Source of the DNA: a virus
Taxonomy: Duplodnaviria; Heunggongvirae; Uroviricota; Caudoviricetes
IMG/VR virus record: IMGVR_UViG_3300029068_000023
DNA: 14,786 bases
Strand: one strand, 5' to 3'
Shown here: positions 1 to 14,200 of the stretch, piece after piece
Position numbering within the stretch: position 1 is the first letter of the stretch
Layout: each line of letters begins with the position of its first letter
The notes under the pieces: model-generated
Seen by the model: the letters and a program-made list of their open reading frames with translations, nothing else
Told to the model about the DNA's origin: nothing
Database searches by the model: none
Made by a program: the position numbers and the translations under genes

Positions 1-92
1 CAGCTGGCAAGCGAATGTAAAGACTGACTAAGCATGTAGTACCGAGGATGTAGGAATTTCGGACGCGGGTTCAACTCCCGCCAGCTCCACCA
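1..92 (+). ncRNA. ssrA: 3' portion of the tmRNA gene (ssrA), ending at the CCA terminus; 5' part lies outside the window
   Basis: Positions 1-92 match the sequence I recall for the 3' end of enterobacterial tmRNA, ending ggacgcgggttcaactcccgccagctccacca (61-92). A P4-type integrase follows directly, as at the E. coli ssrA locus. Confidence 0.88.
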
Positions 93-128
93 CTTGCTCT
101 TCCGGATACGTCCGGCGAAATACTGAAA

Positions 129-160
129 GCCCGCATGGCACAAGCTCTGCGGGCTTTTTT
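129..160 (+). terminator. Rho-independent terminator downstream of ssrA
   Basis: Perfect inverted repeat gcccgca (129-135) / tgcgggc (148-154) with a 12-nt loop, followed by T6 (155-160). Confidence 0.7.
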
Positions 161-204
161 GTGTCTCTCCTTGTCCGAGAACATCCGGCTAAATCCAGTG
201 ATTA

Positions 205-256
205 TTGGTATACATTTAGGTATACGGTAGGATGTATACCTAAACACGTATACCAA
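205..256. promoter_or_regulatory. Cluster of four GGTATAC heptamers upstream of int; probable integrase arm-type or Vis/AlpA binding sites
   Basis: ggtatac at 207-213 and 219-225 (direct, 12-bp spacing); gtatacc at 234-240 and 248-254 (inverted). The 23-mer ttggtatacatttaggtatacgg (205-227) recurs as ttggtatacgattaggtatacgc at 11029-11051. Confidence 0.5.
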
Positions 257-276
257 TTCATGATGGAGTAACTACA

Positions 277-1500
277 GTGGCACGGACAACACGTCCTCTG
301 ACCAACACTGAAATTCTGCGGACTAAAGCTTTAGAGAAGGATCTAACACTGCATGATGGCGAGGGGCTTTTCCTGATAGTGAAAACAAACGGGAAAAAAC
401 TCTGGCGTTTCCGTTATCAACGTCCAACAACAAAACAGCGAACAATGATGGGGCTTGGTGCCTTCCCTGCCTTATCGCTTGCTGATGCCCGAAGGCTAAG
501 GGCTGAATACCTTTCCTTATTAGCCAATGGAATTGACCCGCAAATACAAGCTGAAGTTGCAGAGGAGCAGCAGAAAATCGTGCTTAACAGTATTTTTTCA
601 GCAGTCGCCTCTAACTGGTTCTTGCTCAAAAGCAAAAGTGTTACTCCTGATTACGCAAAGGATATTTGGCGCTCATTGGAAAAAGACGTACTCCCTGCTA
701 TTGGCGAGATCCCCGTTCAGCAAATCAAAGCCCGAACACTAGTTGAAGCACTTGAACCAATCAAAGCTCGCGGAGCACTGGAAACAGTTCGTCGCCTAGT
801 ACAACGTATTAACGAAATAATGATTTATGCGATTAACACTGGTTTGATTGATACTAATCCAGCATCAGGCATTGGTATGGCTTTTGAAAAACCCAAAAAG
901 CAAAACATGCCAACACTGCGGCCTGAAGAGTTACCTAAGCTGATGCGTTCTTTAGCTATGTCAAATCTTTCTATTCCAACTCGCTGTCTAATTGAATGGC
1001 AACTCCTGACACTTGTACGCCCATCTGAAGCTGCCGGTGCTCGATGGGTAGAGATCGATCTTGAAACAAAACTATGGACAATTCCCGCAGAACGGATGAA
1101 AGCCAAGCGTGAGCACATTGTTCCTTTATCACCACAAGCGTTAAATATACTCGATGTTATGAAGCCAATTAGTGGCCACCGAGAATTCATTTTTCCCAGC
1201 AGATGTGACCCGAAGAAGTCAATGAACAGTCAAACGGCGAATGCTGCTTTGAAACGGATAGGTTATGGAGGTAAACTGGTTGCCCATGGAATGCGCTCAA
1301 TAGCCAGCACGGCAATGAATGAATTTGGATTCAACCCAGATGTAATTGAAGCTGCACTTGCTCATATTGATAAAAATGAAGTTCGACGCGCGTACAACCG
1401 CTCAGTTTATCTTACTCAGCGTAAAGAATTGATGGAATGGTGGGGGGAACAATGTGTTTCGCAATTCTCATCTATTAGAAATAAGTGGCCCGTCTCCTAA
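277..1500 (+). CDS. int: P4-family tyrosine integrase (site-specific recombinase), GTG start
   Basis: 407-aa ORF next to the tmRNA 3' end. N-terminal arm-binding-like region (DGEGLFLIV...KLWRFRY) and C-terminal catalytic region with HGMRS...AHID...RRAYNRSVYL (conserved R, H-x-x-R, Y). GTG at 277 preceded by ggag (264-267). Confidence 0.92.
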   Translation: MARTTRPLTNTEILRTKALEKDLTLHDGEGLFLIVKTNGKKLWRFRYQRPTTKQRTMMGLGAFPALSLADARRLRAEYLSLLANGIDPQIQAEVAEEQQKIVLNSIFSAVASNWFLLKSKSVTPDYAKDIWRSLEKDVLPAIGEIPVQQIKARTLVEALEPIKARGALETVRRLVQRINEIMIYAINTGLIDTNPASGIGMAFEKPKKQNMPTLRPEELPKLMRSLAMSNLSIPTRCLIEWQLLTLVRPSEAAGARWVEIDLETKLWTIPAERMKAKREHIVPLSPQALNILDVMKPISGHREFIFPSRCDPKKSMNSQTANAALKRIGYGGKLVAHGMRSIASTAMNEFGFNPDVIEAALAHIDKNEVRRAYNRSVYLTQRKELMEWWGEQCVSQFSSIRNKWPVS

Positions 1501-1543
1501 TTTGGTAGTTTTGTTCATTTGAGATACATAGCAAGGATTTGAA

Positions 1544-2644
1544 ATGTACATTCAAGATATTCCTAAAGATTCAAAATTTTGGGTTGTTCGATCTGGTGAT
1601 GGCGGTATGTTTTATGACCACTTTGTGCACAACTCCATAGCAGCTATTGGGCACATTGACGCTATGGAATTTAGCGATCAGACCCTCAGTAATAAAGATG
1701 AAGTGATTAAACTCGTTTATAATTACAAACAAACTTTGCTTGAAAAAAAGGAAACACTTGCATCTGCATCTAATAAAGCAGGCCAAGTTCTACGTTTCAT
1801 TAATGAAATGTCAGTCGGTGATATAATTATAACTCTAGATGCAAGGAGAATAGTGGTCGGCAGGATCATATCTGGTCCTTATAAAGATATGGAAAATGTA
1901 ACATTACTCAATGTTGATGGAACAACAGATGAAAAATTGCTTAAATTTACCCTTAGACGTAAAGTTGAATGGGGAAAAACGCAGTTTCGTGACAAACTTC
2001 CATTAGCCATAAATAATAGTTTCAGGGCTAATCAAACTGTTTTCTCAGCAAACGAGCACTGGAAAGAGCTTAATCACTGGTTATCTGTTGCATTTATATC
2101 AGATAATGAAGCTTATATTTCCTCACGGATTGAGCAAACAGAAGGGATTAACAATCTTGACATTGCTCAATACTCCATAATAATAAATAAAATTGAAGCT
2201 ATTGCTCAAACAATCGCTAACAATGACAACTATCATTTCGATGATGATAAATTATTATCTCTCTTTGAAGATACATATAAAGAACTAAGAAAAAGTAGAA
2301 CATTTACGGTAACGACACAACAGGTATTTCTTTCACCAGGAGATCTTTGGGCAAAAATATCTGGAAGCCGTAAAAAAAGCCTGTTAGTTATCTGCACATT
2401 TCTTATAATGTTCAATATTGAGCCATCTTTCGCAGATGAAAATGACAAAATATTTTTCGACAACAACTATGAAGCAATATCTTTATTAATTAATAAAGTA
2501 AAACATGATGAAAACTTTGAGGAAGTAAAAAATGGATTAGCATTAAAAGTTCCTGCACAAAAACTAAACACAAAAAACACCTCTACAAACCCCAATAAAA
2601 AACGCTATGATGATGTAGAACCAGACGACTTTGAAGGCATTTAA
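1544..2644 (+). CDS. Hypothetical protein (366 aa), cargo gene A of the int-cos hotspot; function unknown, candidate anti-phage protein
   Basis: Long ORF with RBS aagga (1533-1537) 6 nt before ATG 1544. DNA is very AT-rich relative to the flanking P4 backbone. No Walker A, HEPN, PLD, RT or TIR/SIR2 motifs found by eye; acidic C-terminal tail (YDDVEPDDFEGI). Confidence 0.75.
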   Translation: MYIQDIPKDSKFWVVRSGDGGMFYDHFVHNSIAAIGHIDAMEFSDQTLSNKDEVIKLVYNYKQTLLEKKETLASASNKAGQVLRFINEMSVGDIIITLDARRIVVGRIISGPYKDMENVTLLNVDGTTDEKLLKFTLRRKVEWGKTQFRDKLPLAINNSFRANQTVFSANEHWKELNHWLSVAFISDNEAYISSRIEQTEGINNLDIAQYSIIINKIEAIAQTIANNDNYHFDDDKLLSLFEDTYKELRKSRTFTVTTQQVFLSPGDLWAKISGSRKKSLLVICTFLIMFNIEPSFADENDKIFFDNNYEAISLLINKVKHDENFEEVKNGLALKVPAQKLNTKNTSTNPNKKRYDDVEPDDFEGI

Positions 2645-3302
2645 GAGGATGATGAAGTTCATAAAAAAATGGTGGGATAACCATGATAAATCTAATAATT
2701 TTTTATCAGGTATCCATTACATCGTCATTTCGCTAGCTATCATAATTGGTGGCGCGTGGTCGTTGTATACCTTTGACGCATTACAAATGGCCAAAAATGC
2801 GGAAATCCAACTAAAAAAGGCTAACGAAGATTTAAAACAAATAAAAGAGCAAATTAAGGGCACTGACTCTAGCAGTATTGCTATTAATGTTATCCCGTTA
2901 AAAACACAGCTAGGAATGATTATTAATGTAACCATAAAAAATAACGGCAAACGACCATTATCCTTTGACACATCCAAAGGAGCTTTAACTGTGTACAAAG
3001 TAAGCGCAAATGGCGATAAAGTTGAACAATCTCAATCTTTTACACCAAATCTCTATACATCTTTGAGAGATAAAAAACACTATCCAGAATCAAAAAGCAA
3101 ATCATTATCAAAGACACATGTTTTAATAGGAGCAGAAAAAACCCTTAGCTATATTGTTGGATTAAATAAGCCAGGCGTTTATTATATTACATTTAGGTCA
3201 ACACCAGATGATAATTTTGACACAGAAGAATTAAAAAACAAAAAACCTGTAGAATGGTTCGCTTCTTCATATGTTGAAATTACCCCACAAAAATATAAAT
3301 AA
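2631..3302 (+). CDS. Hypothetical single-pass membrane protein (about 217-223 aa), cargo gene B; start ambiguous (TTG 2631, ATG 2649 or 2652)
   Basis: Overlaps or abuts the stop of gene A (2642-2644), suggesting translational coupling. AAGAGG at 2643-2648 precedes ATG 2649/2652. Basic N-terminus (KRMMKFIKKWW), one hydrophobic helix (FLSGIHYIVISLAIIIGGAWSLYTF), then a coiled-coil-like stretch and a beta-rich C-terminal domain. Confidence 0.7.
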   Translation: MKAFKRMMKFIKKWWDNHDKSNNFLSGIHYIVISLAIIIGGAWSLYTFDALQMAKNAEIQLKKANEDLKQIKEQIKGTDSSSIAINVIPLKTQLGMIINVTIKNNGKRPLSFDTSKGALTVYKVSANGDKVEQSQSFTPNLYTSLRDKKHYPESKSKSLSKTHVLIGAEKTLSYIVGLNKPGVYYITFRSTPDDNFDTEELKNKKPVEWFASSYVEITPQKYK

Positions 3303-3609
3303 AAAAAATAAGAAGCACACAAATGTTTTTATAGCCTAAAAAACCGCCACAATATTTAACAGCCACATTAAAACACATGCATTATGTTAATGCATTAAAT
3401 GAAATTAATCCTCCATCCACTCCGTAAAAATAACACTATCATAAACACATCAATAGAGTCATCCAAAAACACAAAAATAACTTTAACTCAATAATATTAA
3501 ACATTCCCCTTTCTAATCACTACTCTAACTTATTGTCGTAGATGAAGCGAGCAAACTCAATTGCGCTCTCAGACTTTGAAAAAATTGAACACATCAACAT
3601 TTGCGCGCA

Positions 3610-3628
3610 GTGCTTTCCCCGCCTCGCC
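3610..3628. other. cos site (cohesive-end 19-mer of P2/P4-type phages)
   Basis: gtgctttccccgcctcgcc (3610-3628) is the exact reverse complement of the 19-nt P2/P4 cohesive end GGCGAGGCGGGGAAAGCAC as I recall it; it lies next to psu as in P4. A GC hairpin ccgccc/gggcgg plus T4 follows at 3628-3651. Confidence 0.7.
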
Positions 3629-3731
3629 CGCCCGCTTTGCAGGGCGGTTTTAATGCAGTTGCACTGACACGCTCAGGCCGCGCCGGGAATGGCGCGGTCT
3701 GCAGAAAATGAGGCAGGAAAACGCATGCAAA

Positions 3732-3762
3732 GCCATGCACCTTATCGATGCATGGCTTTTTT
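3732..3762. terminator. Bidirectional stem-loop terminator between the cargo region and psu
   Basis: gccatgca (3732-3739) / tgcatggc (3749-3756), followed by T6 on the plus strand (3757-3762) and preceded by an A-rich run (terminator for the minus-strand psu transcript, stop at 3793). Confidence 0.55.
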
Positions 3763-3792
3763 CAGTAAAAACGGGCGGATTTTCGGGGGATT

Positions 3793-4365
3793 TTACACAG
3801 ACTGATGTGATGCCAGTTGCGCACTTTTACGCGAAAAAATCATGTTCTGCGCAGGGGTGAATTTTTCACGGCTGTCGTCCACCGAAGCCGCGTCAGGCCT
3901 GAATCCGATGGCCGTTAAAATGTCGCTATCCTGTGCGGAATAATTAATTTTTTCACCCTTTGCAAGCCAGGACAGAAGGGCTTCACGCAGGGCATCTGTG
4001 GCACGCTGTATGGCACAGTTTCGGGCAATGGCCGTCAGTTCACTGTAGCCCATCAGCTCCGGTGCCAGTGCGGCCGCCAGTACTGTGCCGTGCTGCTGCA
4101 TAAAATCATTCAGCCGGTCGCGGATGCTGATGTGCTGAACGGCTTCATGCGAACGAATATAACGACCGGCGGCCTGATTCACCTGCCATTTTCTGACTTC
4201 GATAATATTGCGTAATTCGTCCAGGCGACTGACGTTTCTGCCTTCTCCTGACAGAAGCCGCAGGTATTCCTGTTCGGCCGCTGCCAGCTCATTTTTGCGT
4301 TGCAGCCATGCTGCTTTGTTATTCTGACAGGTGTCAAAGGCCTGCTGTAAGGCTGTGCTTTCCAT
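3793..4365 (-). CDS. psu: Polarity suppression protein Psu (Rho antagonist / capsid decoration), P4-type
   Basis: 190 aa, the length of P4 Psu; sequence MESTALQQAFDTCQNNKAAWLQRKNELAAAEQEYLRLL... matches my recollection of P4 Psu; last gene of the sid-delta-psu operon next to cos. Confidence 0.9.
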   Translation of the reverse strand: MESTALQQAFDTCQNNKAAWLQRKNELAAAEQEYLRLLSGEGRNVSRLDELRNIIEVRKWQVNQAAGRYIRSHEAVQHISIRDRLNDFMQQHGTVLAAALAPELMGYSELTAIARNCAIQRATDALREALLSWLAKGEKINYSAQDSDILTAIGFRPDAASVDDSREKFTPAQNMIFSRKSAQLASHQSV

Positions 4366-4438
4366 CGTTATCTCTTTCTCATCATGCTGAAGAATAAAAA
4401 TACGGTGTGCGGCGACGGCCGGGGTTAACCGGCAGCCC

Positions 4439-4939
4439 TCATTCCAGACGCAGCGAATATGATTGTGTTTTTAACCGTACTGGCGGCAGTTCCTGTTTTT
4501 CATGCAGGCGTTCTGCCAGTTCGTCCGGCGTGACCGGGCGGACAATGAAGCGGTTGATGGTCTGAAGCGTTTTAAACACCAGACCACAGCCCGGATCCGT
4601 GCACACATAAAAACGTTCAGTGACTTCCTGAGACAGACGCCGCGATGTTCTTGACAGTGCAAGGCCTTTACATCTCCGACAACAATATCCGGTAACAAGC
4701 ATTCTTTTCGGGCGTTTCATACTGCCGGAGGCTGACGTCAGTGAATCGCGGTATCTCTGTTTGCCTGAAATGTATTCCATTCCTGAATCTTTACTGTCAG
4801 AGAAAAAGCTTTCACTCGCTTCAAATGTCGCAGAGCAATAAATATTCCGGCACTGTGCAATCATTATCTTGGTGCCATCGTCCATGAAATGTGCGCGACG
4901 GGTGTGAGCAACATGTCCACACGACGGGCAGTAAATCAT
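4439..4939 (-). CDS. delta: Delta, Ogr-family zinc-finger late transcription activator (tandem Ogr-like domains)
   Basis: 166 aa; two Cys-rich Ogr-like halves (MIYCPSCGH...CRNIYC and CCRRC...YVCTDPGCG); start overlaps the sid stop (ATGA at 4936-4939). Confidence 0.9.
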   Translation of the reverse strand: MIYCPSCGHVAHTRRAHFMDDGTKIMIAQCRNIYCSATFEASESFFSDSKDSGMEYISGKQRYRDSLTSASGSMKRPKRMLVTGYCCRRCKGLALSRTSRRLSQEVTERFYVCTDPGCGLVFKTLQTINRFIVRPVTPDELAERLHEKQELPPVRLKTQSYSLRLE

Positions 4940-5670
4940 GACAGCAGTCCTCTGGCCTTAAGCTCTGCTCCCTGCTGGTCTATTTTGTCCTGCCACACCT
5001 TGCGCTGTGCCGGTGTGCCTGCCACCTCATAATCCATGTGCGGGAGTGTTGCCGCTGACAGTCCGGTCAGCCGGAGAACCGGCTCGCCGGTGAGGCTGAT
5101 TTGCATCTGTTTAATTTTCTGTTCCAGCGATGATTTCACCTGCTGCATGACAGCCTTTTCCGGTGCGACGTAGCCCTGATGGCCGGTGGTGTTGGCGAGC
5201 GGATTTTCCTGTACCAGGATGCTCAGATGCATTGCCCGGACAAGCGCCTCACAGGTTTCATTCAGGGCGTGTTCCAGCTCATGCTCTGCATACAGACTCA
5301 GAAGGTGATGATGTGCCTTCCGGTAGGCGGTGGCCGTGCTGTCACACGCCCCTTTCAGGCGTTCACGTTCAAAATTCAGCACCACGGCCAGATTGTCATA
5401 TTCCTGTACCAGCTCCCGGCGTGCCACGCGCTCAATGTGGCGCTGTTTCAGCTCGTCGCTCAGGACACCACCGGCTGCACGAAAGGCTGTGCGCCAGTCA
5501 TCAGCGTCATTTCCGTCGGCCTGCGCCAGCGCATTTTTTTCCTGCTCTGCCCGTTCAATGGCCGTGACGGTCTCATCCATCAGGCGGGCGTTCTCAAGGT
5601 GGGCGGCTCTGGCCTTTTCCAGTTGTGCCAGTGCGGGTTGCAGATATTCAGGGATGGTGTTGTCAGACAT
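4936..5670 (-). CDS. sid: Sid, external scaffold/capsid size determination protein
   Basis: 244 aa from ATG at 5670 (MSDNTIPEYLQPALAQLEKARAAHLENARLMD...), with strong SD GAGGAG 7 nt upstream on the minus strand. The ORF-track start at 5688 is a GTG without an SD and is probably an over-extension. Confidence 0.88.
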   Translation of the reverse strand: MSDNTIPEYLQPALAQLEKARAAHLENARLMDETVTAIERAEQEKNALAQADGNDADDWRTAFRAAGGVLSDELKQRHIERVARRELVQEYDNLAVVLNFERERLKGACDSTATAYRKAHHHLLSLYAEHELEHALNETCEALVRAMHLSILVQENPLANTTGHQGYVAPEKAVMQQVKSSLEQKIKQMQISLTGEPVLRLTGLSAATLPHMDYEVAGTPAQRKVWQDKIDQQGAELKARGLLS

Positions 5671-5695
5671 TTTCCGGCTCCTCGTCACTTCAGGT

Positions 5696-5760
5696 TAAGA
5701 AAATTGTGACGTACACCGGACAACAACACGACGCATTGCAGATGTGCCAGCCCTGACACA
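5696..5760 (-). promoter_or_regulatory. Psid-like late promoter with two TGT-N12-ACA activator (Delta/Ogr) sites
   Basis: TGT-N12-ACA at 5743-5760 and 5705-5722; centres 38 bp apart, fitting the -55 and -18 arrangement described for P4 late promoters if the sid transcript starts near 5696. Confidence 0.5.
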
Positions 5761-5839
5761 GGAGACTCATCCTCAGACCGGCAAGCCAGGAAAAGGTCGC
5801 AGGAAAAACCGGCTTACTGTTTGTTTTTTTATATTTTAC

Positions 5840-5943
5840 TGTTCACCTCTGTTCACCATAAGAAAAAAGATAAGTAATACAGTAAGTTAAATGGTGAACA
5901 ATCGCAGTAATGACTGTTCACCGTCTGTTCACCACTGTTCACC
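5840..5943. repeat. ori1-like cluster of six TGTTCACC iterons (alpha-protein binding sites)
   Basis: tgttcacc at 5840-5847, 5850-5857, 5915-5922, 5926-5933, 5936-5943 and inverted ggtgaaca at 5893-5900, in an AT-rich intergenic region between the divergent late promoters, about 4.8 kb from the crr repeats. Confidence 0.6.
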
Positions 5944-6102
5944 CGCTCATGGACTTTTTGTGCTGTTTATTACTGTTTGTTTTTATTAATTCGCCGGGAA
6001 TGAATAAGAAAAAACGATTTGTATTTCACTATAAAAATTACGAATTGCTTTAAGTGGCTTTAAATGACTTTAAGTGGAGATGAACAAAAAACACACAAGC
6101 TT

Positions 6103-6166
6103 TGTAAGGCTGCCGGAACAAATCCCCCCTGTTGCGTCTGCTGAAAATATTCACAAAATAAAGCGC
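6103..6166 (+). promoter_or_regulatory. PLL-like late promoter upstream of vis with a TGT-N12-ACA site
   Basis: TGT-N12-ACA at 6103-6120; a site centred at -55 would put the start near 6166, about 57 nt upstream of the vis ATG. Confidence 0.4.
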
Positions 6167-6222
6167 TACCCGAAGCCGGACGGACTTATCCGGTGCTGTA
6201 TGGACATTAACGAGGTAGCCCG

Positions 6223-6489
6223 ATGCAAGCTGTTTTTTCTTCCCCGTCTCCCGCCCCTGTGACGCCACTGATGCCGCTGCCGGACATCACACAGGAGCGT
6301 TTTTTACGTCTTCCGGAAGTGATGCACCTGTGCGGCCTGTCACGCTCGACCATCTACGAACTCATCCGTAAGGGGGAATTTCCGCCGCAGGTGAGTCTTG
6401 GCGGTAAAAATGTGGCCTGGCTGCACTCTGAAGTCACCGCATGGATGGCCGGACGCATTGCCGGACGCAAACGGGGGTACGACGCATGA
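6223..6489 (+). CDS. vis: Vis, AlpA-family excisionase-like DNA-binding regulator
   Basis: 88 aa (P4 orf88/Vis length); helix-turn-helix core [29 protein letters not shown] typical of the AlpA family; SD gagg 7 nt upstream of ATG 6223. Confidence 0.8.
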
Positions 6490-7085
6490 TGATACCCGCT
6501 CTGCAAAAACTCCCTTTTTCTGGCTTGCCTTTTTCCGGCATTTGCGGATATAGTTTTTCCGCTGCCGCAAAATCGGCAGCCGGGCGTGAGAACCCGAGCA
6601 ATTCACAGGCGACATATGACGCGCCACGCGTCTTTTTTTGTGTCGCAATCAATGCCACAGAGCGCCAGATTATGGTGTGGTGTGTGGTCAGTCGTGCAGA
6701 TGGCATTCCGTGCATCCTGCCCGCGTCCGCTCATTATGCCGCAGAGTCAATGGTAGCTCAGGCGGGGCAGCCTCCGGGCTGGCCGGTATCCTGTGAAGCC
6801 GGTATTCTCACCCCCGTCTGGGCTATCGCCATCGAGCGTGAGAACTCCGGCGATAGCGTTATTTGCTATTCACAGGAGGCTGCCATCATGGCTACAACCC
6901 TTACCCCCTCACACCCTGAATTTGTCTTTGTGTTTGCGGCTGTCCGTCGCGCAGACCGTCATCCCCGTATCTGTATGCTTCGCACCGTCGCCGGTGATGA
7001 ACGCAGTGCCCGCCGTTCCCTTGTCCGTGACTATGTGCTCTCCCTTGCTGCCCGTCTGCCGGTGGTGGAGGTGTCCCGTGCGTAA
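6486..7085 (+). CDS. 199-aa ORF coupled to vis by an ATGA overlap and spanning the immunity-like region; coding status uncertain
   Basis: ATG 6486 overlaps the vis stop; the ORF runs 600 bp to TAA 7083-7085. The N-terminal two-thirds is Cys-rich and overlaps structured RNA-like elements; the last 65 codons have their own strong RBS (aggagg 6874-6879, ATG 6888). Either the full ORF or only 6888-7085 may be the real gene. Confidence 0.4.
6584..6876 (+). ncRNA. Immunity-like structured region (candidate CI-RNA / seqA-seqB-seqC type transcription-termination control)
   Basis: Two copies of gcgtgagaac (6584-6593, 6836-6845), each followed by attcacagg (6601-6609, 6868-6876); a partially complementary ttctcac at 6805-6811; a 9-bp stem hairpin at 6822-6857 enclosing the second copy; an intrinsic terminator at 6618-6639. 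Assignment to individual P4 elements is not resolved. Confidence 0.35.
6618..6639 (+). terminator. Intrinsic terminator within the immunity-like region
   Basis: gacgcg (6618-6623) / cgcgtc (6627-6632) stem with 3-nt loop, followed by T7 (6633-6639). Confidence 0.55.
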
Positions 7086-7365
7086 TAAAAAAGCCCCTCA
7101 GACCGTCTCAGCACGTCATGACGCCCGTGAACACCTCAGCATTGAGGCTTACCATAAGCTCAACCGCGCCAGCGCCGTATCCCGGTTTGTTGGGGGTGAT
7201 TTGATTCACCGTGAACTCTCCGGCCTGCATCAGCTCTACATTCCGCATATTTTCAGCTACCTGAATGAAGATATTGATTTTGTGCTGAATGAGCTGAAAG
7301 CCAAAGGCCTGTGCCGCGATTTTCTCGCCCAGCAGAAAGACCGGGGAGACAGGACGCATGTTTGA
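7078..7365 (+). CDS. Epsilon, anti-repressor-like protein (derepresses helper P2 prophage in P4)
   Basis: 95 aa (P4 Epsilon length) from GTG 7078 with SD ggagg (7067-7071); begins [20 protein letters not shown]. The 190-aa ORF-track call from 6793 is an N-terminal over-extension. Start overlaps the stop of the preceding ORF. Confidence 0.7.
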
Positions 7366-7813
7366 TTTTCCCCAGCCCGGTGAGATTTACCGTTCTGCCG
7401 GTTTTCCCGATGTGGCCGTGGTCGGCATTCTGGAAGACGGTATTCCGTGGGAAATGCCGTACCGCTGCCCGGAAATTGTCTGGAACCCGTACCGCCGTAA
7501 ATTCAGTATCCTTGTGCGTATCCTCGCTGACGGGCGCACCACAGACATCCCGCTGGGGCGTTTTCTGCGGGAATTTACCTGTGACCGTCCTGACCTGTTT
7601 AAACGCAGCCCCGTAAACCGGCATGCGGTACTGAAAGAAATGGCCGGAGACCCGGAATTACAGAAATGGCGGGAGAAATATCTGGATATTTACCCGCAGG
7701 ACCCTGTTCCGGTCAGCCGGGCGGCACCGGTGGCGCGGGAATGGCGGGAAATTCCCCGCACGGAGCCTGACCCGGAAATCACCCCGGATAACAGTTACCG
7801 CAATTATCTGTAA
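7358..7813 (+). CDS. P4 orf151-like protein (151 aa), function unknown
   Basis: 151 aa exactly; ATG 7358 overlaps the end of epsilon; position in the left operon upstream of alpha. Confidence 0.75.
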   Translation: MFDFPQPGEIYRSAGFPDVAVVGILEDGIPWEMPYRCPEIVWNPYRRKFSILVRILADGRTTDIPLGRFLREFTCDRPDLFKRSPVNRHAVLKEMAGDPELQKWREKYLDIYPQDPVPVSRAAPVAREWREIPRTEPDPEITPDNSYRNYL

Positions 7814-7948
7814 TTAAAAAACGACACCCGAAAAATTAAATGTGCGTATTCGCGCAGGGATACGCACGTCTTCAGGAGACGCAGATATGCCTTATCAGTT
7901 AATGCAACCGGCACGGAATGCAGTCATCTGTCACAGGGAGGAAAGCAA

Positions 7949-8269
7949 ATGAAAACACCCTTACCGCCCGTCTTACGCGCAGCCCTTTACCGTCGTGCTG
8001 TCGCCTGTGCCTGGCTGACCGTGTGCGAACGTCAGCACCGCTACCCGCATCTCACCCTTGAATCACTGGAGGCGGCCATCGCCGCTGAGCTGGAAGGCTT
8101 TTATCTGCGCCAGCACGGTGAGGAAAAAGGGCGTCAGATAGCCTGTGCCCTGCTGGAAGATTTAATGGAATCCGGCCCCCTGAAGGCCGCGCCGTCGCTG
8201 TCCTTTCTCGGGCTGGTTGTGATGGATGAACTCTGTGCCCGTCACATAAAAGCGCCGGTACTGCACTGA
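7949..8269 (+). CDS. Hypothetical protein (106 aa) between orf151 and alpha
   Basis: Strong RBS gggagg 8 nt upstream of ATG 7949; stop 15 nt before the alpha start. I cannot confirm from memory whether P4 has an equivalent ORF here. Confidence 0.6.
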
Positions 8270-8283
8270 AGGAGAACAACACC

Positions 8284-10617
8284 ATGAAAATGAACGTAAC
8301 CGCCACCGTCAGCCATGCGCTCGGCCACTGGCCGCGTATTCTCCCGGCGCTGGGGATTCAGGTGCTGAAAAACCGTCATCAGCCCTGTCCGGTCTGTGGC
8401 GGGAGTGACCGCTTCCGTTTTGATGACAGGGAGGGGCGCGGCACCTGGTACTGCAATCAGTGTGGTGCCGGTGACGGCCTGAAACTGGTTGAAAAGGTGT
8501 TTGGTGTTTCCCCGTCCGACGCGGCCGCAAAGGTGGCTGCCGTGACCGGCAGCCTGCCCCCGGCTGACCCGGCAGTGACGGCTGCCGCCGGTGCTGAAAC
8601 AGACGCCGCCCGGAAGAACGCCGCCGCACTGGCACAAACCCTGATGGCGAAAACCCGTCCCGGAACCGGTAACGCCTACCTGACCCGCAAGGGCTTTCCC
8701 GGCCGGGAATGCCGGATGCTGACCGGCACACACAGAGCCGGTGGCGTGAGCTGGCGCGCCGGTGACCTTGTGGTGCCACTGTATGACGACAGCGGCGAAC
8801 TGGTTAACCTTCAGTTAATCAGTGCTGACGGCCGTAAGCGCACCCTGAAAGGCGGACAGGTCAGGGGCACCTGTCACACCCTTGAAGGACAGAATCAGGC
8901 CGGAAAACGTCTGTGGATAGCGGAGGGATACGCGACCGCACTTACCGTGCATCACCTGACCGGTGAAACGGTGATGGTGGCGCTTTCTTCCGTGAACCTC
9001 CTTTCTCTGGCCAGCCTTGCCCGGCAGAAGCACCCCGCCTGTCAGATTGTCCTTGCCGCTGACCGTGACCTCAGCGGTGACGGCCAGAAAAAAGCCGCCG
9101 CAGCCGCAGATGCGTGTGAAGGTGTTGTTGCCCTGCCGCCGGTCTTCGGTGACTGGAATGATGCCTTCACGCAGTACGGCGGGGAAGCCACCCGTAAGGC
9201 CATTTATGATGCCATCCGGCCACCGGCTGAAAGCCCGTTCGACACCATGAGCGAAGCGGAGTTTTCCGCCATGAGTACGAGCGAAAAGGCCATGCGTATC
9301 TATGAGCATTACGGCGAGGCGCTCGCGGTCGATGCCAACGGCCAGCTTCTGTCCCGTTATGAAAATGGTGTCTGGAAGGTGCTGCCACCACAGGACTTTG
9401 CCCGGGATGTGGCCGGGCTGTTTCAGCGGCTACGCGCGCCGTTCTCCTCCGGGAAGGTGGCCTCCGTGGTGGACACCCTGAAGCTGATTATTCCGCAGCA
9501 GGAAGCCCCCTCCCGCCGCCTGATTGGCTTTCGTAACGGCGTGCTCGACACGCAGAACGGCACGTTCCACCCGCACAGTCCGTCACACTGGATGCGCACC
9601 CTGTGCGATGTGGATTTCACCCCGCCGGTGGACGGTGAAACGCTGGAAACCCACGCTCCCGCGTTCTGGCGCTGGCTTGACCGTGCTGCCGGTGGTCGTG
9701 CGGAAAAACGCGACGTGATTCTGGCCGCACTGTTTATGGTGCTGGCAAACCGCTACGACTGGCAGCTCTTTCTGGAGGTGACCGGTCCCGGCGGCAGCGG
9801 CAAAAGTATCATGGCCGAAATAGCCACCCTGCTGGCCGGGGAGGATAACGCCACGTCGGCCACCATTGAGACGCTGGAATCCCCGCGTGAACGTGCCGCG
9901 TTAACTGGCTTCTCACTGATACGCCTGCCGGACCAGGAAAAATGGAGCGGCGACGGAGCCGGACTCAAGGCCATCACCGGCGGCGATGCGGTGTCCGTTG
10001 ACCCGAAATACCGGGATGCGTACTCCACGCACATCCCGGCGGTGATTCTGGCCGTGAACAATAACCCGATGCGCTTCACCGACCGCAGCGGCGGCGTGTC
10101 ACGCCGGCGGGTGATTATTCACTTCCCGGAACAGATAGCCCCGCAGGAGCGCGACCCGCAGCTTAAGGACAAAATCACCCGCGAGCTGGCGGTCATCGTG
10201 CGTCACCTGATGCAGAAGTTCAGCGACCCGATGCTCGCCCGGTCACTGCTTCAGTCCCAGCAGAACTCAGACGAGGCACTGAACATCAAACGGGATGCCG
10301 ACCCGACGTTTGATTTTATCGGCTATCTGGAAACCCTGCCGCAGACCAGCGGCATGTATATGGGGAACGCCAGTATCATCCCGCGTAATTACCGTAAATA
10401 CCTCTATCACGCCTATCTGGCCTACATGGAGGCAAACGGCTACCGGAATGTACTCAGTCTGAAAATGTTCGGGCTGGGGCTGCCGGTGATGCTGAAGGAA
10501 TACGGACTGAATTACGAGAAGCGCCATACCAAACAGGGGATACAGACCAACCTGACGCTGAAAGAGGAAAGCTACGGCGACTGGCTGCCAAAATGTGATG
10601 ACCCTGCAACAGCCTGA
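8284..10617 (+). CDS. alpha: Alpha, bifunctional primase-helicase replication protein (zinc-binding primase + superfamily-3 helicase + C-terminal origin-binding domain)
   Basis: 777 aa (P4 alpha length). N-terminal zinc motif CPVCGGSDRFRFDD...WYCNQCG, TOPRIM-like primase region, Walker A GPGGSGKS (near 9786-9809); SD aaggag upstream of ATG 8284. Confidence 0.95.
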   Translation: MKMNVTATVSHALGHWPRILPALGIQVLKNRHQPCPVCGGSDRFRFDDREGRGTWYCNQCGAGDGLKLVEKVFGVSPSDAAAKVAAVTGSLPPADPAVTAAAGAETDAARKNAAALAQTLMAKTRPGTGNAYLTRKGFPGRECRMLTGTHRAGGVSWRAGDLVVPLYDDSGELVNLQLISADGRKRTLKGGQVRGTCHTLEGQNQAGKRLWIAEGYATALTVHHLTGETVMVALSSVNLLSLASLARQKHPACQIVLAADRDLSGDGQKKAAAAADACEGVVALPPVFGDWNDAFTQYGGEATRKAIYDAIRPPAESPFDTMSEAEFSAMSTSEKAMRIYEHYGEALAVDANGQLLSRYENGVWKVLPPQDFARDVAGLFQRLRAPFSSGKVASVVDTLKLIIPQQEAPSRRLIGFRNGVLDTQNGTFHPHSPSHWMRTLCDVDFTPPVDGETLETHAPAFWRWLDRAAGGRAEKRDVILAALFMVLANRYDWQLFLEVTGPGGSGKSIMAEIATLLAGEDNATSATIETLESPRERAALTGFSLIRLPDQEKWSGDGAGLKAITGGDAVSVDPKYRDAYSTHIPAVILAVNNNPMRFTDRSGGVSRRRVIIHFPEQIAPQERDPQLKDKITRELAVIVRHLMQKFSDPMLARSLLQSQQNSDEALNIKRDADPTFDFIGYLETLPQTSGMYMGNASIIPRNYRKYLYHAYLAYMEANGYRNVLSLKMFGLGLPVMLKEYGLNYEKRHTKQGIQTNLTLKEESYGDWLPKCDDPATA

Positions 10618-10624
10618 CCCACCT

Positions 10625-10649
10625 GACCGGCATCTGCCGGTCTTTTTTT
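10625..10649 (+). terminator. Rho-independent terminator after alpha
   Basis: gaccggca (10625-10632) / tgccggtc (10635-10642) followed by T7 (10643-10649), immediately after the alpha stop (10615-10617). Confidence 0.6.
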
Positions 10650-10667
10650 ATCCCGACATCCCCCGAA

Positions 10668-10762
10668 GGTGAACAATCCACTGTTCACCCTTCACCGTAT
10701 ATTCACCCGTTATCACACTGAAATTAAAAGAGAAAAACGAAAGGTGAACAGTGTGAACAATC
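10668..10762. repeat. crr-like direct repeat 1 (cis replication region) containing TGTTCACC/GGTGAACA iterons
   Basis: ggtgaaca 10668-10675, tgttcacc 10682-10689, ggtgaaca 10743-10750, gtgtgaaca 10751-10759; about 85% identical by eye to the repeat at 10850-10944, with 182-bp periodicity; followed by an A9/T6 tract. Confidence 0.7.
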
Positions 10763-10849
10763 AAATCAAAAAAAAACTTTTTTCTCCCTGTGCGATTTTC
10801 AGTGCAGGGAATTAATCACCGGTATGAGTCACACCGGCAGAATGCCGGA

Positions 10850-10944
10850 GGTGAAGAATCGAATGTTCACCCTTCACCCATTATTCACCACCTATCATAC
10901 TGAAATAAAATGAGAAAAAAGAAAGGTGAACAGTGTGAACAGTT
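10850..10944. repeat. crr-like direct repeat 2
   Basis: ggtgaaga 10850-10857, tgttcacc 10864-10871, ggtgaaca 10925-10932, gtgtgaaca about 10933-10941; followed by an A8/T7 tract (about 10952-10966). Confidence 0.7.
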
Positions 10945-11028
10945 CTTCCGAAAAAAAATTTTTTTCCTGTACGATATAGCATCAATCCAAGTAAAAATGC
11001 GCTTTCATTTCACATTAACTTACAGCCA

Positions 11029-11051
11029 TTGGTATACGATTAGGTATACGC
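11029..11051. repeat. Right-end copy of the GGTATAC arm-type repeat pair
   Basis: ttggtatacgattaggtatacgc, with ggtatac at 11031-11037 and 11043-11049 (same 12-bp spacing as 207-213/219-225); 20 of 23 positions identical to 205-227. Confidence 0.5.
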
Positions 11052-11281: not shown

Positions 11282-14200
11282 TCAGAACGACCAGTTCACA
11301 CCAGCTACCGCGTTCCACGGGGATTCCACACCGGCACTATGGCTATACCCCACCCCAAGATGCCCGCTTAACGTACTGCTGAATGAGGCTTTAATACCTG
11401 CCTGGTATATTCCACGTCTGCCCGACAAATAATTGACGAAATTACCGTCACTATTCACTTTCACCCGGTTATCATCGACAAATTCTTTGCGCACAGCCGC
11501 CTTCAGCCACGGCTCAACTTCCATACCGTTCCCCAGACGCATGTTGTAACTCAGCGTTGCGCCCAGTTCACGATATATACTGCGGGTATCGACTGATTTC
11601 GATTTCATGCCATTGGATAAATGATATTCGGGGTTATCAGCGGTGAACCCCGTTAACGATGCATACGGCGTCAGGTTCCAGTTACCATCGGTAAATCGCA
11701 TCCCGGTTTCAATGTGACCGCCCAGCCCGTTGCTGTGGTAACTGCCATTGGCGGCTCCACCGCTGCTCATTTTACCTGCTACGTTACTTTTAAAACGGTT
11801 CAGCTTCACGACACCGTCCAGATAGAAACCACTTTCATGTTCCCAACTGGCATAGCCGCCCAGAGAATAACTGCCCACACTGCCATGTCCTCCGCGATCA
11901 AAACCGATATGTGAATGGGAATAGCCCATAAAAGCGCCTAGCGTGGTAATTCCTTCAGGAATATCATTACGGCTGTCGATCCCCACTGTCATTCCGGTCA
12001 GCGTCTGCTCAAACCCGGCACCCGCATCGGTGGTGACATTATTACGGGTGTTATACGTCGCCCCCCAGACATTATTGTTGTGTGGACTCGCTTTCATTAT
12101 GTTCAACCGCTCGCGAATACTGTTTAGCTCAGCATCAAATACCAACGGTAATGTTGCTGCCATATTGAGTACGGCTGGCGTAGAAGGCGTAATGCGTTTC
12201 TCCGGAACGGGTGTCGGCGTTGGATCGGGAGTAGGGTCTGGTTTTGGATTTGGGTCTGGCTTTGGATCGGGTTTTGGGTCTGGCTTTGGATTTGGGATGG
12301 GGTCCGGGTTGGGTTTGACATCATTGGTCAGGTTCCAGTTGCTGTTGCCGTCACTTTTCAGGACATACTCATAGGTCCCAAGATCAACGAAACCGCCGGT
12401 ATTGCCCAGCGTAAACGAAGCATCCCCTCCCCCTGTTTTCACCAGCGTCATCGCGTCGTCAGACTGTGGGCTGACGCCGGTATCCTGAACAAAGATTTTA
12501 AAATTACCAGTGGCGTTGTTGTTGACGACCAGTTGATCGCCCCGGGAGCCTGCAACGTTGGTATGCAGGTAGAAATTACCGCTACCGGAAAGTTCATTGG
12601 TTGTCAGCGTATTGTAGATACCGTTAGTTGTGGCAGGCGCTGCTGTTTGTGCTGACAAATAAACATCACCGTCGTTGAGTAGCAAACTGTTTACTCTATA
12701 TTCGCAGTTGCTGGTACCTGCACAGGAATTATTGCTGTTAAGCCAGACACTGCCCCGGCTGGCAGCCGTCAGGTCGGCAAGCGTGGTATCGACGCCATTT
12801 CCCAGAGTCAATGTCGCGCTATCGGTAATCCGGACCGCCCCTTCGAGTTTAACTGGCGTAACATTATCCCGTGGCGTCATTAACGACAGGCTTCCTGTCG
12901 CGCCACTGACCGATGCATCCGCCAGCGTACCTGCGTAGACGATTGCCGTACCGCCAGCGACCTGGAGATCTTCTGCCCGGGCCAGAGCCTGAAACTCATC
13001 TTTTGACCGCCCAAGGGTATATTGCCCGCCAGAGTTAACCTTTGTGGCGGAGTCCTGACCCAGGTTTTGCATTGCCCCACCCTTGCCAACCGTGGAGTCG
13101 CGAGCTTCGGTACCTGCTAATACCAATAAATTACCGCCATTTTCCAGCAACATATTGGTCGCTAAATTGCCGGAAATGGAAAAAGTACCGTACTGGTGAG
13201 TACCGCTGATTTCAATACCGTTAGCCGTGCTCGTCTGGAGAGCGGCACCGCTGTTCTGGACGATATCTGTCGCTTTGCCATTATCGTTGACTGTCAGCGT
13301 ACCGCCTTCATTGATCTTTGTTTTTATTGCCTCTCCGTTAGCTGAAACTGTTTGTATTCCGCCGTCGTTAATTGTTGTCTCATTCGCCACACCCTCGACA
13401 ATTTGTTCACCGCCGGTGAGCGTCGTGCCTGTCGCAGTGGCTTTTGTTTTGACGATCTCCCGTCCGCCCATATTGACCTGTGTTTTGTCAGAAGAGGTGT
13501 CTGACTCCACGGTTAACACGCCGCCATTTGCCAGCAGGATATTGTTCGCCGCACCCTGCTCGATGCTGAACGCGACGCCATCCGCGCGTGTTCCTGTGAC
13601 CCGCGTCGCCCTGGTGGTTGCAACCAAAGCGCCCTGGCTACTCTGCTGTATCCCCGTTGCGCTGCCTTTCTCCCGCACATCGAGTGTGCCGCCGTCATTA
13701 AGCACCGAGTTTTCAGCCAGACCGCCCTCATTAACTACCTGTGAACCCCCATTAATAATGGAACCTTCCGCTGTCCCGTTTGCCATAATTTGTTGTAGGC
13801 CAGAGACGATATCGGTATTGATTGCCTTACCATAATTCTGAACGGTTTGCGTGCCACCATTGATGTGTGTTTTCTCTGTTGACCCACCATCAACAATTTG
13901 TTCACCACTTTCGATATTTGCTTCAGTGGCTAAACCATATACCGTTTGCTTGCCACCTTTGATATTTGCTTTATCAGAAGTGGCACTGGCATATATTGTT
14001 TGGGTGCCAGCACTATTGAGTACAGTGCCAACATCTTTTCCATAAACATCCATTTTGCCGTTGGCATTAATAATCGTGTCAACTGCGCGGGAACCAGTGA
14101 CGACTGTTAATGAGCCAGCGTTTTCCAGCACTACATTTTTAGCTTCTGAATTCCTGATGTAGAAAGCATCACCATAACTGTTGGTTCCTTCGATAAGTGT

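What the first reader, a model, noticed from the sequence alone, without database searches (positions are those of the whole stretch)
6486..7085. Immunity-like region with repeated complementary elements embedded in a 199-codon ORF coupled to vis
Seen: gcgtgagaac occurs twice (6584-6593 and 6836-6845), each followed by attcacagg; a partially complementary ttctcac lies at 6805-6811; the second copy sits in the loop of a 9-bp stem hairpin (6822-6857); a canonical intrinsic terminator lies at 6618-6639. All of this is inside an ORF of exactly 199 codons that starts at an ATGA overlap with vis, whose last 65 codons have an independent strong RBS (6888). Established: P4 immunity is mediated by a small processed RNA that pairs with two upstream/downstream complementary sequences to terminate left-operon transcription. 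Inference: this is the equivalent locus, but I cannot assign the individual elements or decide whether the whole ORF, or only its 3' third, is translated.
Basis: partly seen in the sequence, partly recalled or inferred. Interest (0 to 1): 0.45.

Follow-up and report, generated by a model that had tools for sequence, protein, structure and literature searches.

The report
Satellite phage P4 RNA immunity locus
This stretch is the well-studied immunity region of satellite phage P4, base-for-base identical to the reference phage: a small antisense RNA pairs with two matching target sites to shut off the satellite's replication genes, so the finding is correct but already known.

Summary
It is the P4 immunity region itself. 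Window 3600-10964 is 98.5% identical to phage P4, and 6562-7112 is identical base for base.

All elements can be assigned:
- PLE promoter: 6525-6554.
- seqA / IsrK-like leader RNA: 6561-6638, ending in an intrinsic terminator at 6618-6639.
- CI RNA (Rfam C4 family): 6752-6831, carrying the two seqB segments at 6789-6797 and 6805-6811.
- seqC: 6836-6845 and 6868-6876, the latter overlapping the kil Shine-Dalgarno sequence.
- kil: 6888-7085, 65 codons, Icd-like. It contains the Rho-dependent terminator timm (6888-7044).
- eta: 6486-7085, 199 codons, ATGA-coupled to vis.

In 70 distinct relatives from Enterobacterales, seqA, seqB and seqC co-vary (6 a-types and 14 b-types). The CI fold shows compensatory changes. 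Only kil shows a protein-coding substitution pattern. The first 134 eta codons stay open in 72 of 72 loci but show no amino-acid-level constraint. This fits the published model in which translation of eta, not its product, overrides termination.

Novelty: already known. Interest: low.

The parts
6223..6489 (+). vis (orf88, AlpA-type excisionase/regulator). Its TGA stop overlaps the eta ATG (ATGA).
   Evidence: Pfam Phage_AlpA, E = 7e-21. P4 annotation ORF88 at 9030-8764.
6486..7085 (+). eta: 199-codon ORF that contains PLE, seqA, t1, cI, seqC and kil. It is translated in full only from the upstream late promoter.
   Evidence: Sequence. PGAP CDS 'Icd-like protein' in E. coli Ec1120. Frame open in 72 of 72 relatives, with in-frame indels. 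Mechanism from PMC10111431, section 20.
6525..6554 (+). PLE, a constitutive sigma-70 promoter (TTGCCT, 18-nt spacer, TATAGT). Transcription probably starts near 6561.
   Evidence: Promoter scan. The -10 sequence annotated in X02534 maps to 6549-6554. The Rfam isrK model starts at 6561.
6561..6638 (+). seqA leader RNA (IsrK-like). It has hairpin 6561-6567/6574-6580, a hairpin presenting the a-module in its loop (stem 6581-6584/6593-6596), a single-stranded b-module, and a terminator hairpin.
   Evidence: Rfam RF01394, 69.7 bits against a cut-off of 50, and RF03163, 49.5 bits against 46.7. Fold. PMC3632133 and PMC4825925 equate IsrK with P4 seqA RNA.
6584..6593 (+). seqA a-module (GCGTGAGAAC, core GTGAGAA at 6586-6592). 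It pairs with CI 6805-6811.
6601..6609 (+). seqA b-module (ATTCACAGG). It pairs with the CI loop at 6789-6797.
6618..6639 (+). Rho-independent terminator (6-bp GC stem, CCA loop, T7). This is terminator t1 of the P4 literature, by my own recollection of Briani et al. 2000.
   Evidence: It forms the 3' hairpin of the isrK model. The codons that spell it (DAP.VFF) are invariant in 19 diverse homologues.
6752..6831 (+). CI RNA (cI gene), the roughly 80-nt processed immunity RNA. It has a 16-17-bp closing stem, two hairpins and a 3' GCCA tail (tRNA-like).
   Evidence: Rfam C4 RF01695 at 6746-6833, 74.9 bits. MFE -49.5 kcal/mol, z = -5.4. 99.9% of cells paired, with 5 pairs showing double changes, across 71 relatives. 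The exact ends are from my memory of P4 coordinates 8501 and about 8423.
6789..6797 (+). seqB b' segment, in the loop of CI hairpin 2 (TCCTGTGAA).
6805..6811 (+). seqB a' segment, in the single-stranded bulge of CI (TTCTCAC, extending into CCCCCG).
6822..6857 (+). Conserved 9-bp hairpin. It uses the 3' strand of the CI closing stem and displays the seqC a-module in its loop. It is followed by GTTATTTGCTATT and is a candidate for the CI-dependent terminator t4.
   Evidence: I5. 99.4% of cells paired, with 3 pairs showing compensatory double changes, in 71 relatives. The t4 assignment is inference.
6836..6845 (+). seqC a-module (GCGTGAGAAC).
6868..6879 (+). seqC b-module (ATTCACAGG), overlapping the kil Shine-Dalgarno sequence GGAGG (6875-6879).
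6888..7085 (+). kil: 65-codon Icd-like cell-division inhibitor, nested in frame at the 3' end of eta.
   Evidence: NCBIfam phage_ICD_like, 76 bits against a cut-off of 25. Third-codon-position variation 0.44 against 0.17-0.20 at positions 1 and 2; pN/pS 0.35. Homologues in N15 gp32 and PY54 icd.
6888..7044 (+). timm, the Rho-dependent terminator fragment (P4 X51522 coordinates 8365-8209).
   Evidence: Coordinates quoted in PMC3177188, mapped through the gap-free alignment. The sequence is identical to P4.
7078..7365 (+). epsilon (helper derepression protein), the first gene protected by the immunity terminators.
   Evidence: Pfam Derepression, E = 9e-51. P4 annotation.

Best explanation
This is the immunity region of satellite phage P4, carried here by a P4 prophage variant inserted at ssrA in an E. 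coli chromosome.

The constitutive promoter PLE (6525-6554) lies inside the eta ORF. It transcribes a leader that carries seqA, an intrinsic terminator (t1) and the cI gene. Host RNases process this transcript into the stable CI RNA of about 80 nt (6752-6831).

CI exposes two segments, a' (TTCTCAC) and b' (CCTGTGAA). Both are complementary to two target sites on the same operon's RNA. One target is seqA, upstream. The other is seqC, downstream, and its b-module overlaps the kil ribosome-binding site.

Pairing promotes termination at the leader terminators and blocks kil translation. The untranslated RNA is then terminated by Rho at timm, inside kil. As a result epsilon, orf151, cnr and the alpha primase stay off, the prophage stays quiescent, and a superinfecting P4 is repressed.

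When the upstream late promoter fires, transcripts start before vis. Ribosomes finishing vis reinitiate at the ATGA overlap and translate the whole 199-codon eta frame through seqA, cI and seqC. This overrides immunity-dependent termination.

Shown here: sequence identity to P4, the RNA family matches, the structure, three-way covariation in relatives, a coding signature only in kil, and an upstream frame that is kept open.

Taken from the literature: RNA processing, Rho dependence, Kil toxicity and the antitermination effect of eta translation.
For: - Identity to P4: 99.1% over 6102-7400. The only differences inside the finding are at 6494 and 6560/6561.
- Rfam hits above gathering score for C4, isrK and c4-a1b1. 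C4 and isrK are both present in 20 of 20 relatives tested.
- The repeats exceed chance, and the complementary elements are exact.
- Predicted duplex energies: CI with seqC -56.9 kcal/mol (0 of 300 shuffles as good); CI with seqA -43.0 kcal/mol (7 of 300).
- Covariation in 70 distinct relatives: the a' 7-mer is perfectly complementary to seqA in 70 of 70 and to seqC in 69 of 70, across 6 types.
- The seqA b 8-mer is perfectly complementary to the CI loop in 55 of 70. An identical 8-mer is present in seqC in 60 of 70, across 14 types.
- Cross-type complementarity averages 3.6 of 7 positions for the a-module and 4.6 of 8 for the b-module, far below the within-locus matches.
- The CI fold has z = -5.4 and shows compensatory changes.
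- kil alone has a coding signature and an Icd-like domain.
- The eta frame is open in 72 of 72 loci. Upstream lengths are all multiples of three, while the other two frames carry 3.7 and 5.6 stops on average.
- The ATGA overlap with the upstream ORF is kept in 40 of 74 loci.
- The mechanism is summarised in PMC10111431 and PMC4825925. The timm coordinates come from PMC3177188.
Against: - Nothing in the sequence contradicts this explanation.
- No expression data exist for this strain, so activity of this particular copy is inferred from identity to P4.
- The primary P4 papers (Sabbattini 1995, Forti 1999, Briani 2000) are not in the held library. The names t1 and t4 and the exact CI ends rest on my memory.
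- The set of relatives was retrieved by a protein-guided search. This favours intact frames, so the 72 of 72 figure is somewhat ascertainment-biased.
Confidence: 0.96

Rival explanations
1. The 199-codon ORF encodes a conventional 199-aa protein (the 'Ash family' or Bro-network regulator) whose amino-acid sequence is the functional product. On this view the repeats and hairpins are secondary.
For: - Pfam Phage_ASH matches residues 22-146 at 85 bits.
- PHROG 'transcriptional repressor' families match.
- There are 1260 database homologues of about 180-200 aa.
- PMC10111431 groups eta with Bro-network genes.
Against: - Codons 1-134 show no third-position excess. Pairwise differences at positions 1, 2 and 3 are about equal, and pN/pS is 0.63-0.95, against 0.35 in kil.
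- The conserved 'residues' coincide with the promoter, the hairpins, the terminator and the CI RNA.
- The variable 'residues' (for example E/G/R at position 35, L/S/P at 108 and E/G/R at 119) are the co-varying RNA modules.
- NCBIfam recognises only the Kil part.
Confidence: 0.08
2. The locus is primarily a type-I-like toxin-antitoxin (addiction) module. Kil is the toxin and CI is the antisense antitoxin. Its main role would be to stabilise the plasmid or prophage state, with control of the replication operon secondary.
For: - Kil belongs to the Icd-like cell-division-inhibitor family.
- CI pairs across the kil Shine-Dalgarno sequence.
- PMC10111431 states that Kil functions in cell killing.
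Against: - The same pairing controls terminators upstream of epsilon and alpha.
- seqA and the t1 terminator have no role in a simple toxin-antitoxin scheme, yet they are as conserved as seqC.
- The literature attributes immunity to transcription termination.
Confidence: 0.05
3. The repeats and hairpins are chance features of a GC-rich coding sequence.
For: None beyond the short length of each motif.
Against: Shuffle expectations are 0.02 and 0.14. Rfam matches have E-values around 1e-13. Three-way covariation is seen across 70 relatives.
Confidence: 0.005

Closest known systems
Bacteriophage P4 immunity region (PLE, seqA, cI/seqB, seqC, kil/eta, timm; GenBank X51522 about 8767-8168)
   Same: The sequence is identical from window 6562 to 7112, and there are three substitutions in all within the finding. 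Gene order is the same (vis, eta/kil, epsilon, orf151, cnr, alpha), and all RNA elements are the same.
   Different: - Only the host element differs. It sits at ssrA with a non-P4 integrase and different cargo genes.
- Position 6561 is G, where the P4 reference has C. This adds a base pair to the first leader hairpin and matches the relatives.
P1/P7 ImmI region (C4 antisense RNA with a1/b1 and a2/b2 targets, followed by icd and ant); the related modules of N15 (gene 32/cA) and PY54 (icd)
   Same: - Same Rfam families (C4 RF01695, c4-a1b1 RF03163).
- Same two-module (a and b) pairing logic, with one target upstream and one over the ribosome-binding site of an Icd-like gene.
- Kil is about 44-50% identical to N15 gp32 and PY54 Icd and matches NCBIfam phage_ICD_like.
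   Different: - In P4 the downstream genes are the helper-derepression and primase genes, not an antirepressor.
- The whole RNA module is embedded in a longer ORF (eta) that is translationally coupled to vis.
- Comparison with P1 itself was not run here.
Salmonella Gifsy-1 IsrK / orf45 / anrP (Rfam RF01394)
   Same: The leader RNA at 6561-6638 matches the isrK model end to end, including the terminal Rho-independent terminator. PMC4825925 and PMC3632133 call IsrK a structural homologue of P4 seqA RNA and note a CI-like processed RNA (STnc1160) downstream.
   Different: IsrK is described as a trans-acting activator of translation of its own read-through mRNA. In P4, seqA is described as a cis target of CI. 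Whether the t1-terminated P4 leader RNA also acts in trans was not tested here.

Membership tests
P4-type RNA immunity system | A CI/C4-class RNA with a long closing stem, two hairpins and a tRNA-like 3' end, encoded in the leader of the left operon | tested here: met
   Rfam RF01695, 74.9 bits against 45. MFE z = -5.4. Compensatory changes in 71 relatives.
P4-type RNA immunity system | Two target sites (seqA upstream, seqC downstream) complementary to seqB in CI | tested here: met
   Exact complements. Duplex energies. Three-way covariation across 6 a-types and 14 b-types.
P4-type RNA immunity system | A constitutive promoter (PLE) upstream of seqA and internal to eta | tested here: met
   TTGCCT, 18-nt spacer, TATAGT at 6525-6554. 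The -10 sequence matches the one annotated in X02534. Promoter activity itself was not tested.
P4-type RNA immunity system | Nested genes: kil (65 codons) as the 3' end of eta (199 codons), with eta coupled to vis | tested here: met
   Sequence. Description in PMC10111431. The arrangement is conserved in relatives.
P4-type RNA immunity system | A Rho-dependent terminator (timm) within kil that acts when kil is not translated | not testable with these tools
   The sequence is identical to the P4 timm fragment 8365-8209. Rho dependence cannot be computed.
P4-type RNA immunity system | Processing of the primary transcript to mature CI by host RNases | not testable with these tools
   The GCCA 3' tail and acceptor-like stem are consistent with RNase P recognition. 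No RNA data were available.
P4-type RNA immunity system | Location in a P4-type satellite, between sid-delta-psu/vis and epsilon/alpha | tested here: met
   Window 3600-10964 aligns to P4 at 98.5%. PGAP annotation of the same locus.
Rfam isrK (RF01394) | A three-hairpin leader RNA ending in a Rho-independent terminator | tested here: met
   69.7 bits against 50, matching the full model length. The fold reproduces the three hairpins. Present in 20 of 20 relatives.
Icd-like cell-division inhibitor (NCBIfam NF033153) | The 48-residue Icd-like domain | tested here: met
   Kil residues 12-59, 76 bits against 25. The coding substitution pattern is seen only here.
Pfam Phage_ASH (PF10554) as a protein family | Residues 22-146 conserved because of selection on the protein | tested here: not met
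   The HMM score is met (85 bits). However, codon positions 1, 2 and 3 vary equally and pN/pS is 0.63-0.95 over this span. Conservation follows the RNA and promoter elements.

The most novel reading that the evidence does not exclude
The first 134 codons of eta may be a reading frame translated for the act of translation only. Across Enterobacterales it stays open, with in-frame indels and ATGA coupling to vis. Yet it shows no amino-acid-level selection, because its sequence is dictated by a promoter, two RNA genes and their targets. If so, Pfam PF10554 ('Ash family') and the N-terminal two-thirds of the 'Icd-like protein' gene calls are largely RNA genes modelled as protein. In addition, the a and b pairing modules reassort freely (30 a-by-b combinations among 70 relatives), which would give P4-like satellites a combinatorial set of immunity specificities. 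Surveys of P4-like elements (for example PMC8628076) have not catalogued this.
Probability: 0.5. Interest if true: 0.3.

Novelty: already known. Interest (0 to 1): 0.1.

Why it matters
For the scan, this finding can be closed. It is the textbook P4 immunity locus, present in about a fifth of complete E. coli genomes (1048 of 5426).

Its practical value is for annotation:
- Current RefSeq and PGAP records label the region only as an 'Icd-like protein' CDS.
- The P4 reference still carries an obsolete 137-aa 'cI repressor'.
- Neither record annotates CI RNA or the seqA RNA.

The comparative by-products would interest people working on satellite-helper conflict, but they extend a mechanism that is already established. 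These by-products are the modular a/b specificity types, an upstream frame kept open without protein-level constraint, and a conserved alternative hairpin around seqC.

Tried and rejected
- The primary P4 papers (PMC176756, PMC94026 and the Forti 1999 DOI) are not held in the library. I relied on secondary summaries and marked my own recollections as such.
- A literature search for seqA/seqB/seqC gave mostly unrelated papers. A four-term search found only the IsrK paper.
- ARAGORN found no tRNA or tmRNA, because ssrA is cut at the window edge. Rfam found the ssrA 3' end.
- I looked for an attR copy of the ssrA 3' end after alpha. There is no exact repeat of 12 nt or more. Only a 23-nt arm-type repeat is present, at 204-226 and 11028-11050. 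The right boundary of the element remains undefined.
- Folding the seqC hairpin region alone gave no energy signal (z = -0.4). Its support comes from covariation instead.
- I rejected the idea that the terminator at 6618-6639 marks the end of an independent gene. It is the 3' hairpin of the leader RNA model and lies inside the same operon.
- I rejected the reading that the repeats are transposon or att-type DNA sites. They co-vary as RNA complements, not as DNA-binding motifs.

Full report
**Observation.** All the listed features are present.
- GCGTGAGAAC occurs only at 6584-6593 and 6836-6845 in the window. The chance expectation is 0.02, and 0 of 200 shuffles gave two copies.
- ATTCACAGG occurs only at 6601-6609 and 6868-6876, with a chance expectation of 0.14.
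- The repeat scan confirms TTCTCAC at 6805-6811 as the complement of both GTGAGAA cores, extendable to 16-19 nt.
TCCTGTGAA at 6789-6797 is perfectly complementary to both TTCACAGG(A) copies.
- It confirms the 9-bp hairpin 6822-6830 / 6849-6857.
- The consensus scan finds one sigma-70-like promoter (TTGCCT, 18-nt spacer, TATAGT, 6525-6554). It also finds the intrinsic terminator GACGCG-CCA-CGCGTC plus T7 at 6618-6639.
- The ATG at 6486 overlaps the vis stop (ATGA) and opens 199 codons ending at 7085. GGAGG at 6875-6879 precedes the ATG at 6888, which opens the last 65 codons.
- An in-frame ATG at 6441 inside vis gives the mechanical 214-aa ORF.

**Identity.**
- Megablast against phage records gives phage P4 at 99.1% over 6102-7400.
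- A whole-window comparison shows that 3600-10964 is P4 at 98.5%. It covers cos, psu, delta, sid, vis, eta/kil, epsilon, orf151, cnr, alpha and crr, in reverse orientation to the P4 map.
- Inside 6102-7400 the alignment has no gaps, so P4 coordinate = 15253 minus window position.
- Only 12 substitutions lie in that span, and three are inside the finding: 6494 and 6560/6561. From 6562 to 7112 the window is identical to P4.
- The integrase (277-1500) and the two cargo ORFs (1544-3302) do not match P4.
- The window begins with the 3' end of ssrA.
- The same 14-kb arrangement lies in E. coli chromosomes between ssrA and ypjA.

**RNA elements.** Rfam gives three matches above gathering score on the + strand:
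- C4 antisense RNA at 6746-6833, 74.9 bits against a cut-off of 45.
- isrK at 6561-6638, 69.7 bits against 50.
- c4-a1b1 targets at 6548-6600, 49.5 bits against 46.7.

Two papers state that IsrK and C4 are the structural homologues of what the P4 literature calls seqA RNA and CI RNA (PMC3632133; PMC4825925).

Folding of 6752-6831 gives the expected shape at -49.5 kcal/mol, z = -5.4. It has a long closing stem, two hairpins, an 8-nt single-stranded bulge carrying most of TTCTCAC, and a 3' GCCA tail. The leader 6561-6640 folds into three hairpins. The second presents CGUGAGAA in its loop, and the third is the terminator.

Predicted intermolecular duplexes of CI are as follows:
- With 6832-6892: -56.9 kcal/mol (0 of 300 shuffled targets as good).
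- With 6575-6615: -43.0 kcal/mol (7 of 300).

The seqC duplex covers the kil Shine-Dalgarno sequence.

**Assignment of the elements** (P4 names):

| Element | Window coordinates |
|---|---|
| PLE | 6525-6554 |
| seqA a-module | 6584-6593 |
| seqA b-module | 6601-6609 |
| Leader terminator | 6618-6639 |
| cI / CI RNA | 6752-6831 |
| seqB b' | 6789-6797 |
| seqB a' | 6805-6811 |
| seqC a-module | 6836-6845 |
| seqC b-module | 6868-6876 (overlaps the SD) |
| kil | 6888-7085 |
| eta | 6486-7085 |
| timm | 6888-7044 |

- The timm coordinates come from P4 8365-8209, quoted in PMC3177188.
- From my own memory of Briani et al. 2000 (title confirmed, text not held), the leader terminator is 't1'. It is Rho-independent and needs CI and seqA.
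- From the same source, a second CI- and seqC-dependent site, 't4', lies between cI and timm.

**Mechanism from the literature.** PMC10111431, citing Forti et al. 1999, makes these points:
- Processing of that transcript yields the stable immunity RNA CI.
- Kil, a truncated Eta that kills cells, is translated on read-through.
- Full-length Eta is made only from the upstream late promoter and is translationally coupled to the alpA homologue (vis).
- Eta translation prevents termination.

PMC4825925 adds that CI acts as an antisense RNA. It causes premature termination by pairing with seqA and seqC.

**Test in relatives.** A search with Eta found 1260 homologues of about 180-200 aa across Enterobacterales, named 'Icd-like' or 'ash family'. 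From one genome per species I fetched 80 loci at 45-96% amino-acid identity. Rfam finds both C4 and isrK in 20 of 20 diverse loci tested.

In 70 distinct sequences the pairing modules co-vary:
- The a-module has 6 types. The CI a' 7-mer is perfectly complementary to seqA in 70 of 70 and to seqC in 69 of 70.
- The b-module has 14 types. The seqA b 8-mer is perfectly complementary to the CI loop in 55 of 70. An identical 8-mer is present in seqC in 60 of 70. The imperfect cases are listed.
- 30 different a-by-b combinations occur.
- Complementarity between different types averages 3.6 of 7 for the a-module and 4.6 of 8 for the b-module.

The CI fold is kept in 99.9% of cells, with five pairs showing changes on both sides.

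**Which part is translated as protein.** A codon alignment of 71 sequences shows a third-position excess only in kil:

| Region | Variation at codon positions 1 / 2 / 3 | pN/pS |
|---|---|---|
| kil (codons 135-199) | 0.20 / 0.17 / 0.44 | 0.35 |
| Codons 1-134, five segments | roughly equal (within 0.09) | 0.63-0.95 |

- The eta frame is nonetheless open in 72 of 72 usable loci.
- The upstream part has lengths of 345-402 nt, all multiples of three.
- The other two frames carry 3.7 and 5.6 stops on average and are never open.
- One of the 80 loci (L070) has a frameshift.
- The exact ATGA overlap with the upstream ORF is kept in 40 of 74 loci.
- NCBIfam recognises only the Kil part (phage_ICD_like). 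Kil has homologues in N15 gp32 and PY54 icd.
- Pfam Phage_ASH covers residues 22-146, which is the RNA-encoding part.

My reading is that kil is a real protein gene. The upstream two-thirds of eta is kept translatable but is not selected as a protein. This fits the published idea that ribosome passage, rather than the product, overrides termination.

One caveat applies. The loci were found by a protein-guided search, which favours intact frames.

**The 9-bp hairpin.** Its 5' arm is the 3' strand of the CI closing stem, so the two structures exclude each other. In 71 relatives it is paired in 99.4% of cells. Three of its pairs show compensatory double changes, so it is a conserved alternative structure. 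It displays the seqC a-module in a loop, just as the seqA hairpin displays its own copy, and it is followed by GTTATTTGCTATT. I infer, without a test, that it may be the CI-dependent terminator t4 or a processing switch.

**Verdict.** The locus is the known P4 immunity region, and it is common. It occurs in 1048 of 5426 complete E. coli genomes, in 205 of them at 99% identity or more. Novelty: already known. Interest: low. The comparative results extend an established mechanism. These are the modular specificity types, an open frame without protein-level constraint, and the conserved alternative hairpin.

Noticed in passing
window 1-3302: The P4 core (98.5% identical to P4) is joined to a non-P4 tyrosine integrase (277-1500) next to the 3' end of ssrA (1-92). 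It also carries two cargo ORFs in the position of P4 cII/beta/gop. The 366-aa one matches PADLOC candidate-defence family PDC-S02 and weakly a type II restriction enzyme. The 223-aa one has no family. Only 2 of 5426 complete E. coli genomes hold this exact int-plus-cargo arrangement.
   Followed up: partly
window 6486-6887 (Eta residues 22-146): Pfam PF10554 'Ash protein family' and several PHROG 'transcriptional regulator' families match the part of the ORF that encodes PLE, the seqA RNA and the CI RNA. That part shows no codon-position signature of protein selection. These families may largely model translated RNA genes.
   Followed up: partly
window 6560-6561: The window reads CG where the P4 reference reads GC. 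G6561 pairs with C6580, extending the first leader hairpin, and it matches the conserved GCT/GTx codon in relatives. The reference P4 sequence may carry an error or a laboratory mutation here.
   Followed up: partly
window 6766-6775 and 6875-6884: There is a further perfect 10-nt complementarity between the 5' strand of CI hairpin 1 (GGCAGCCTCC) and the kil Shine-Dalgarno region (GGAGGCTGCC). It adjoins the b-module pairing and overlaps it by 3 nt. It could extend or compete with the seqB-seqC duplex.
   Followed up: no
window 6822-6857: The hairpin built from the 3' strand of the CI stem and a downstream arm is conserved with compensatory changes in 71 relatives, so it is an alternative to the CI fold. 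Its role (terminator t4, or a processing switch) is unknown to me.
   Followed up: partly
L005-L083 (seqA, seqB and seqC segments): The a and b pairing modules reassort independently, giving 6 a-types, 14 b-types and 30 combinations in 70 distinct loci. This suggests many immunity specificities among P4-like satellites.
   Followed up: partly
NC_001609.1 8168-8584; NZ_CP126598.1 locus L084 17988-18587: Public annotation is out of date. P4 RefSeq still lists a 137-aa 'cI transcriptional repressor' CDS. PGAP labels the eta ORF 'host cell division inhibitor Icd-like protein'. Neither annotates CI RNA or the seqA RNA.
   Followed up: yes
window 204-226 and 11028-11050; 11282-14416 (- strand): A 23-nt imperfect direct repeat (GGTATACG-type, probably integrase arm sites) flanks the element. 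No copy of the ssrA 3' end of 12 nt or more was found on the right side, so attR is undefined. The adjacent 1044-aa ORF is the YpjA/EhaD autotransporter adhesin, which is annotated as N-terminally truncated in strain Ec1120.
   Followed up: partly
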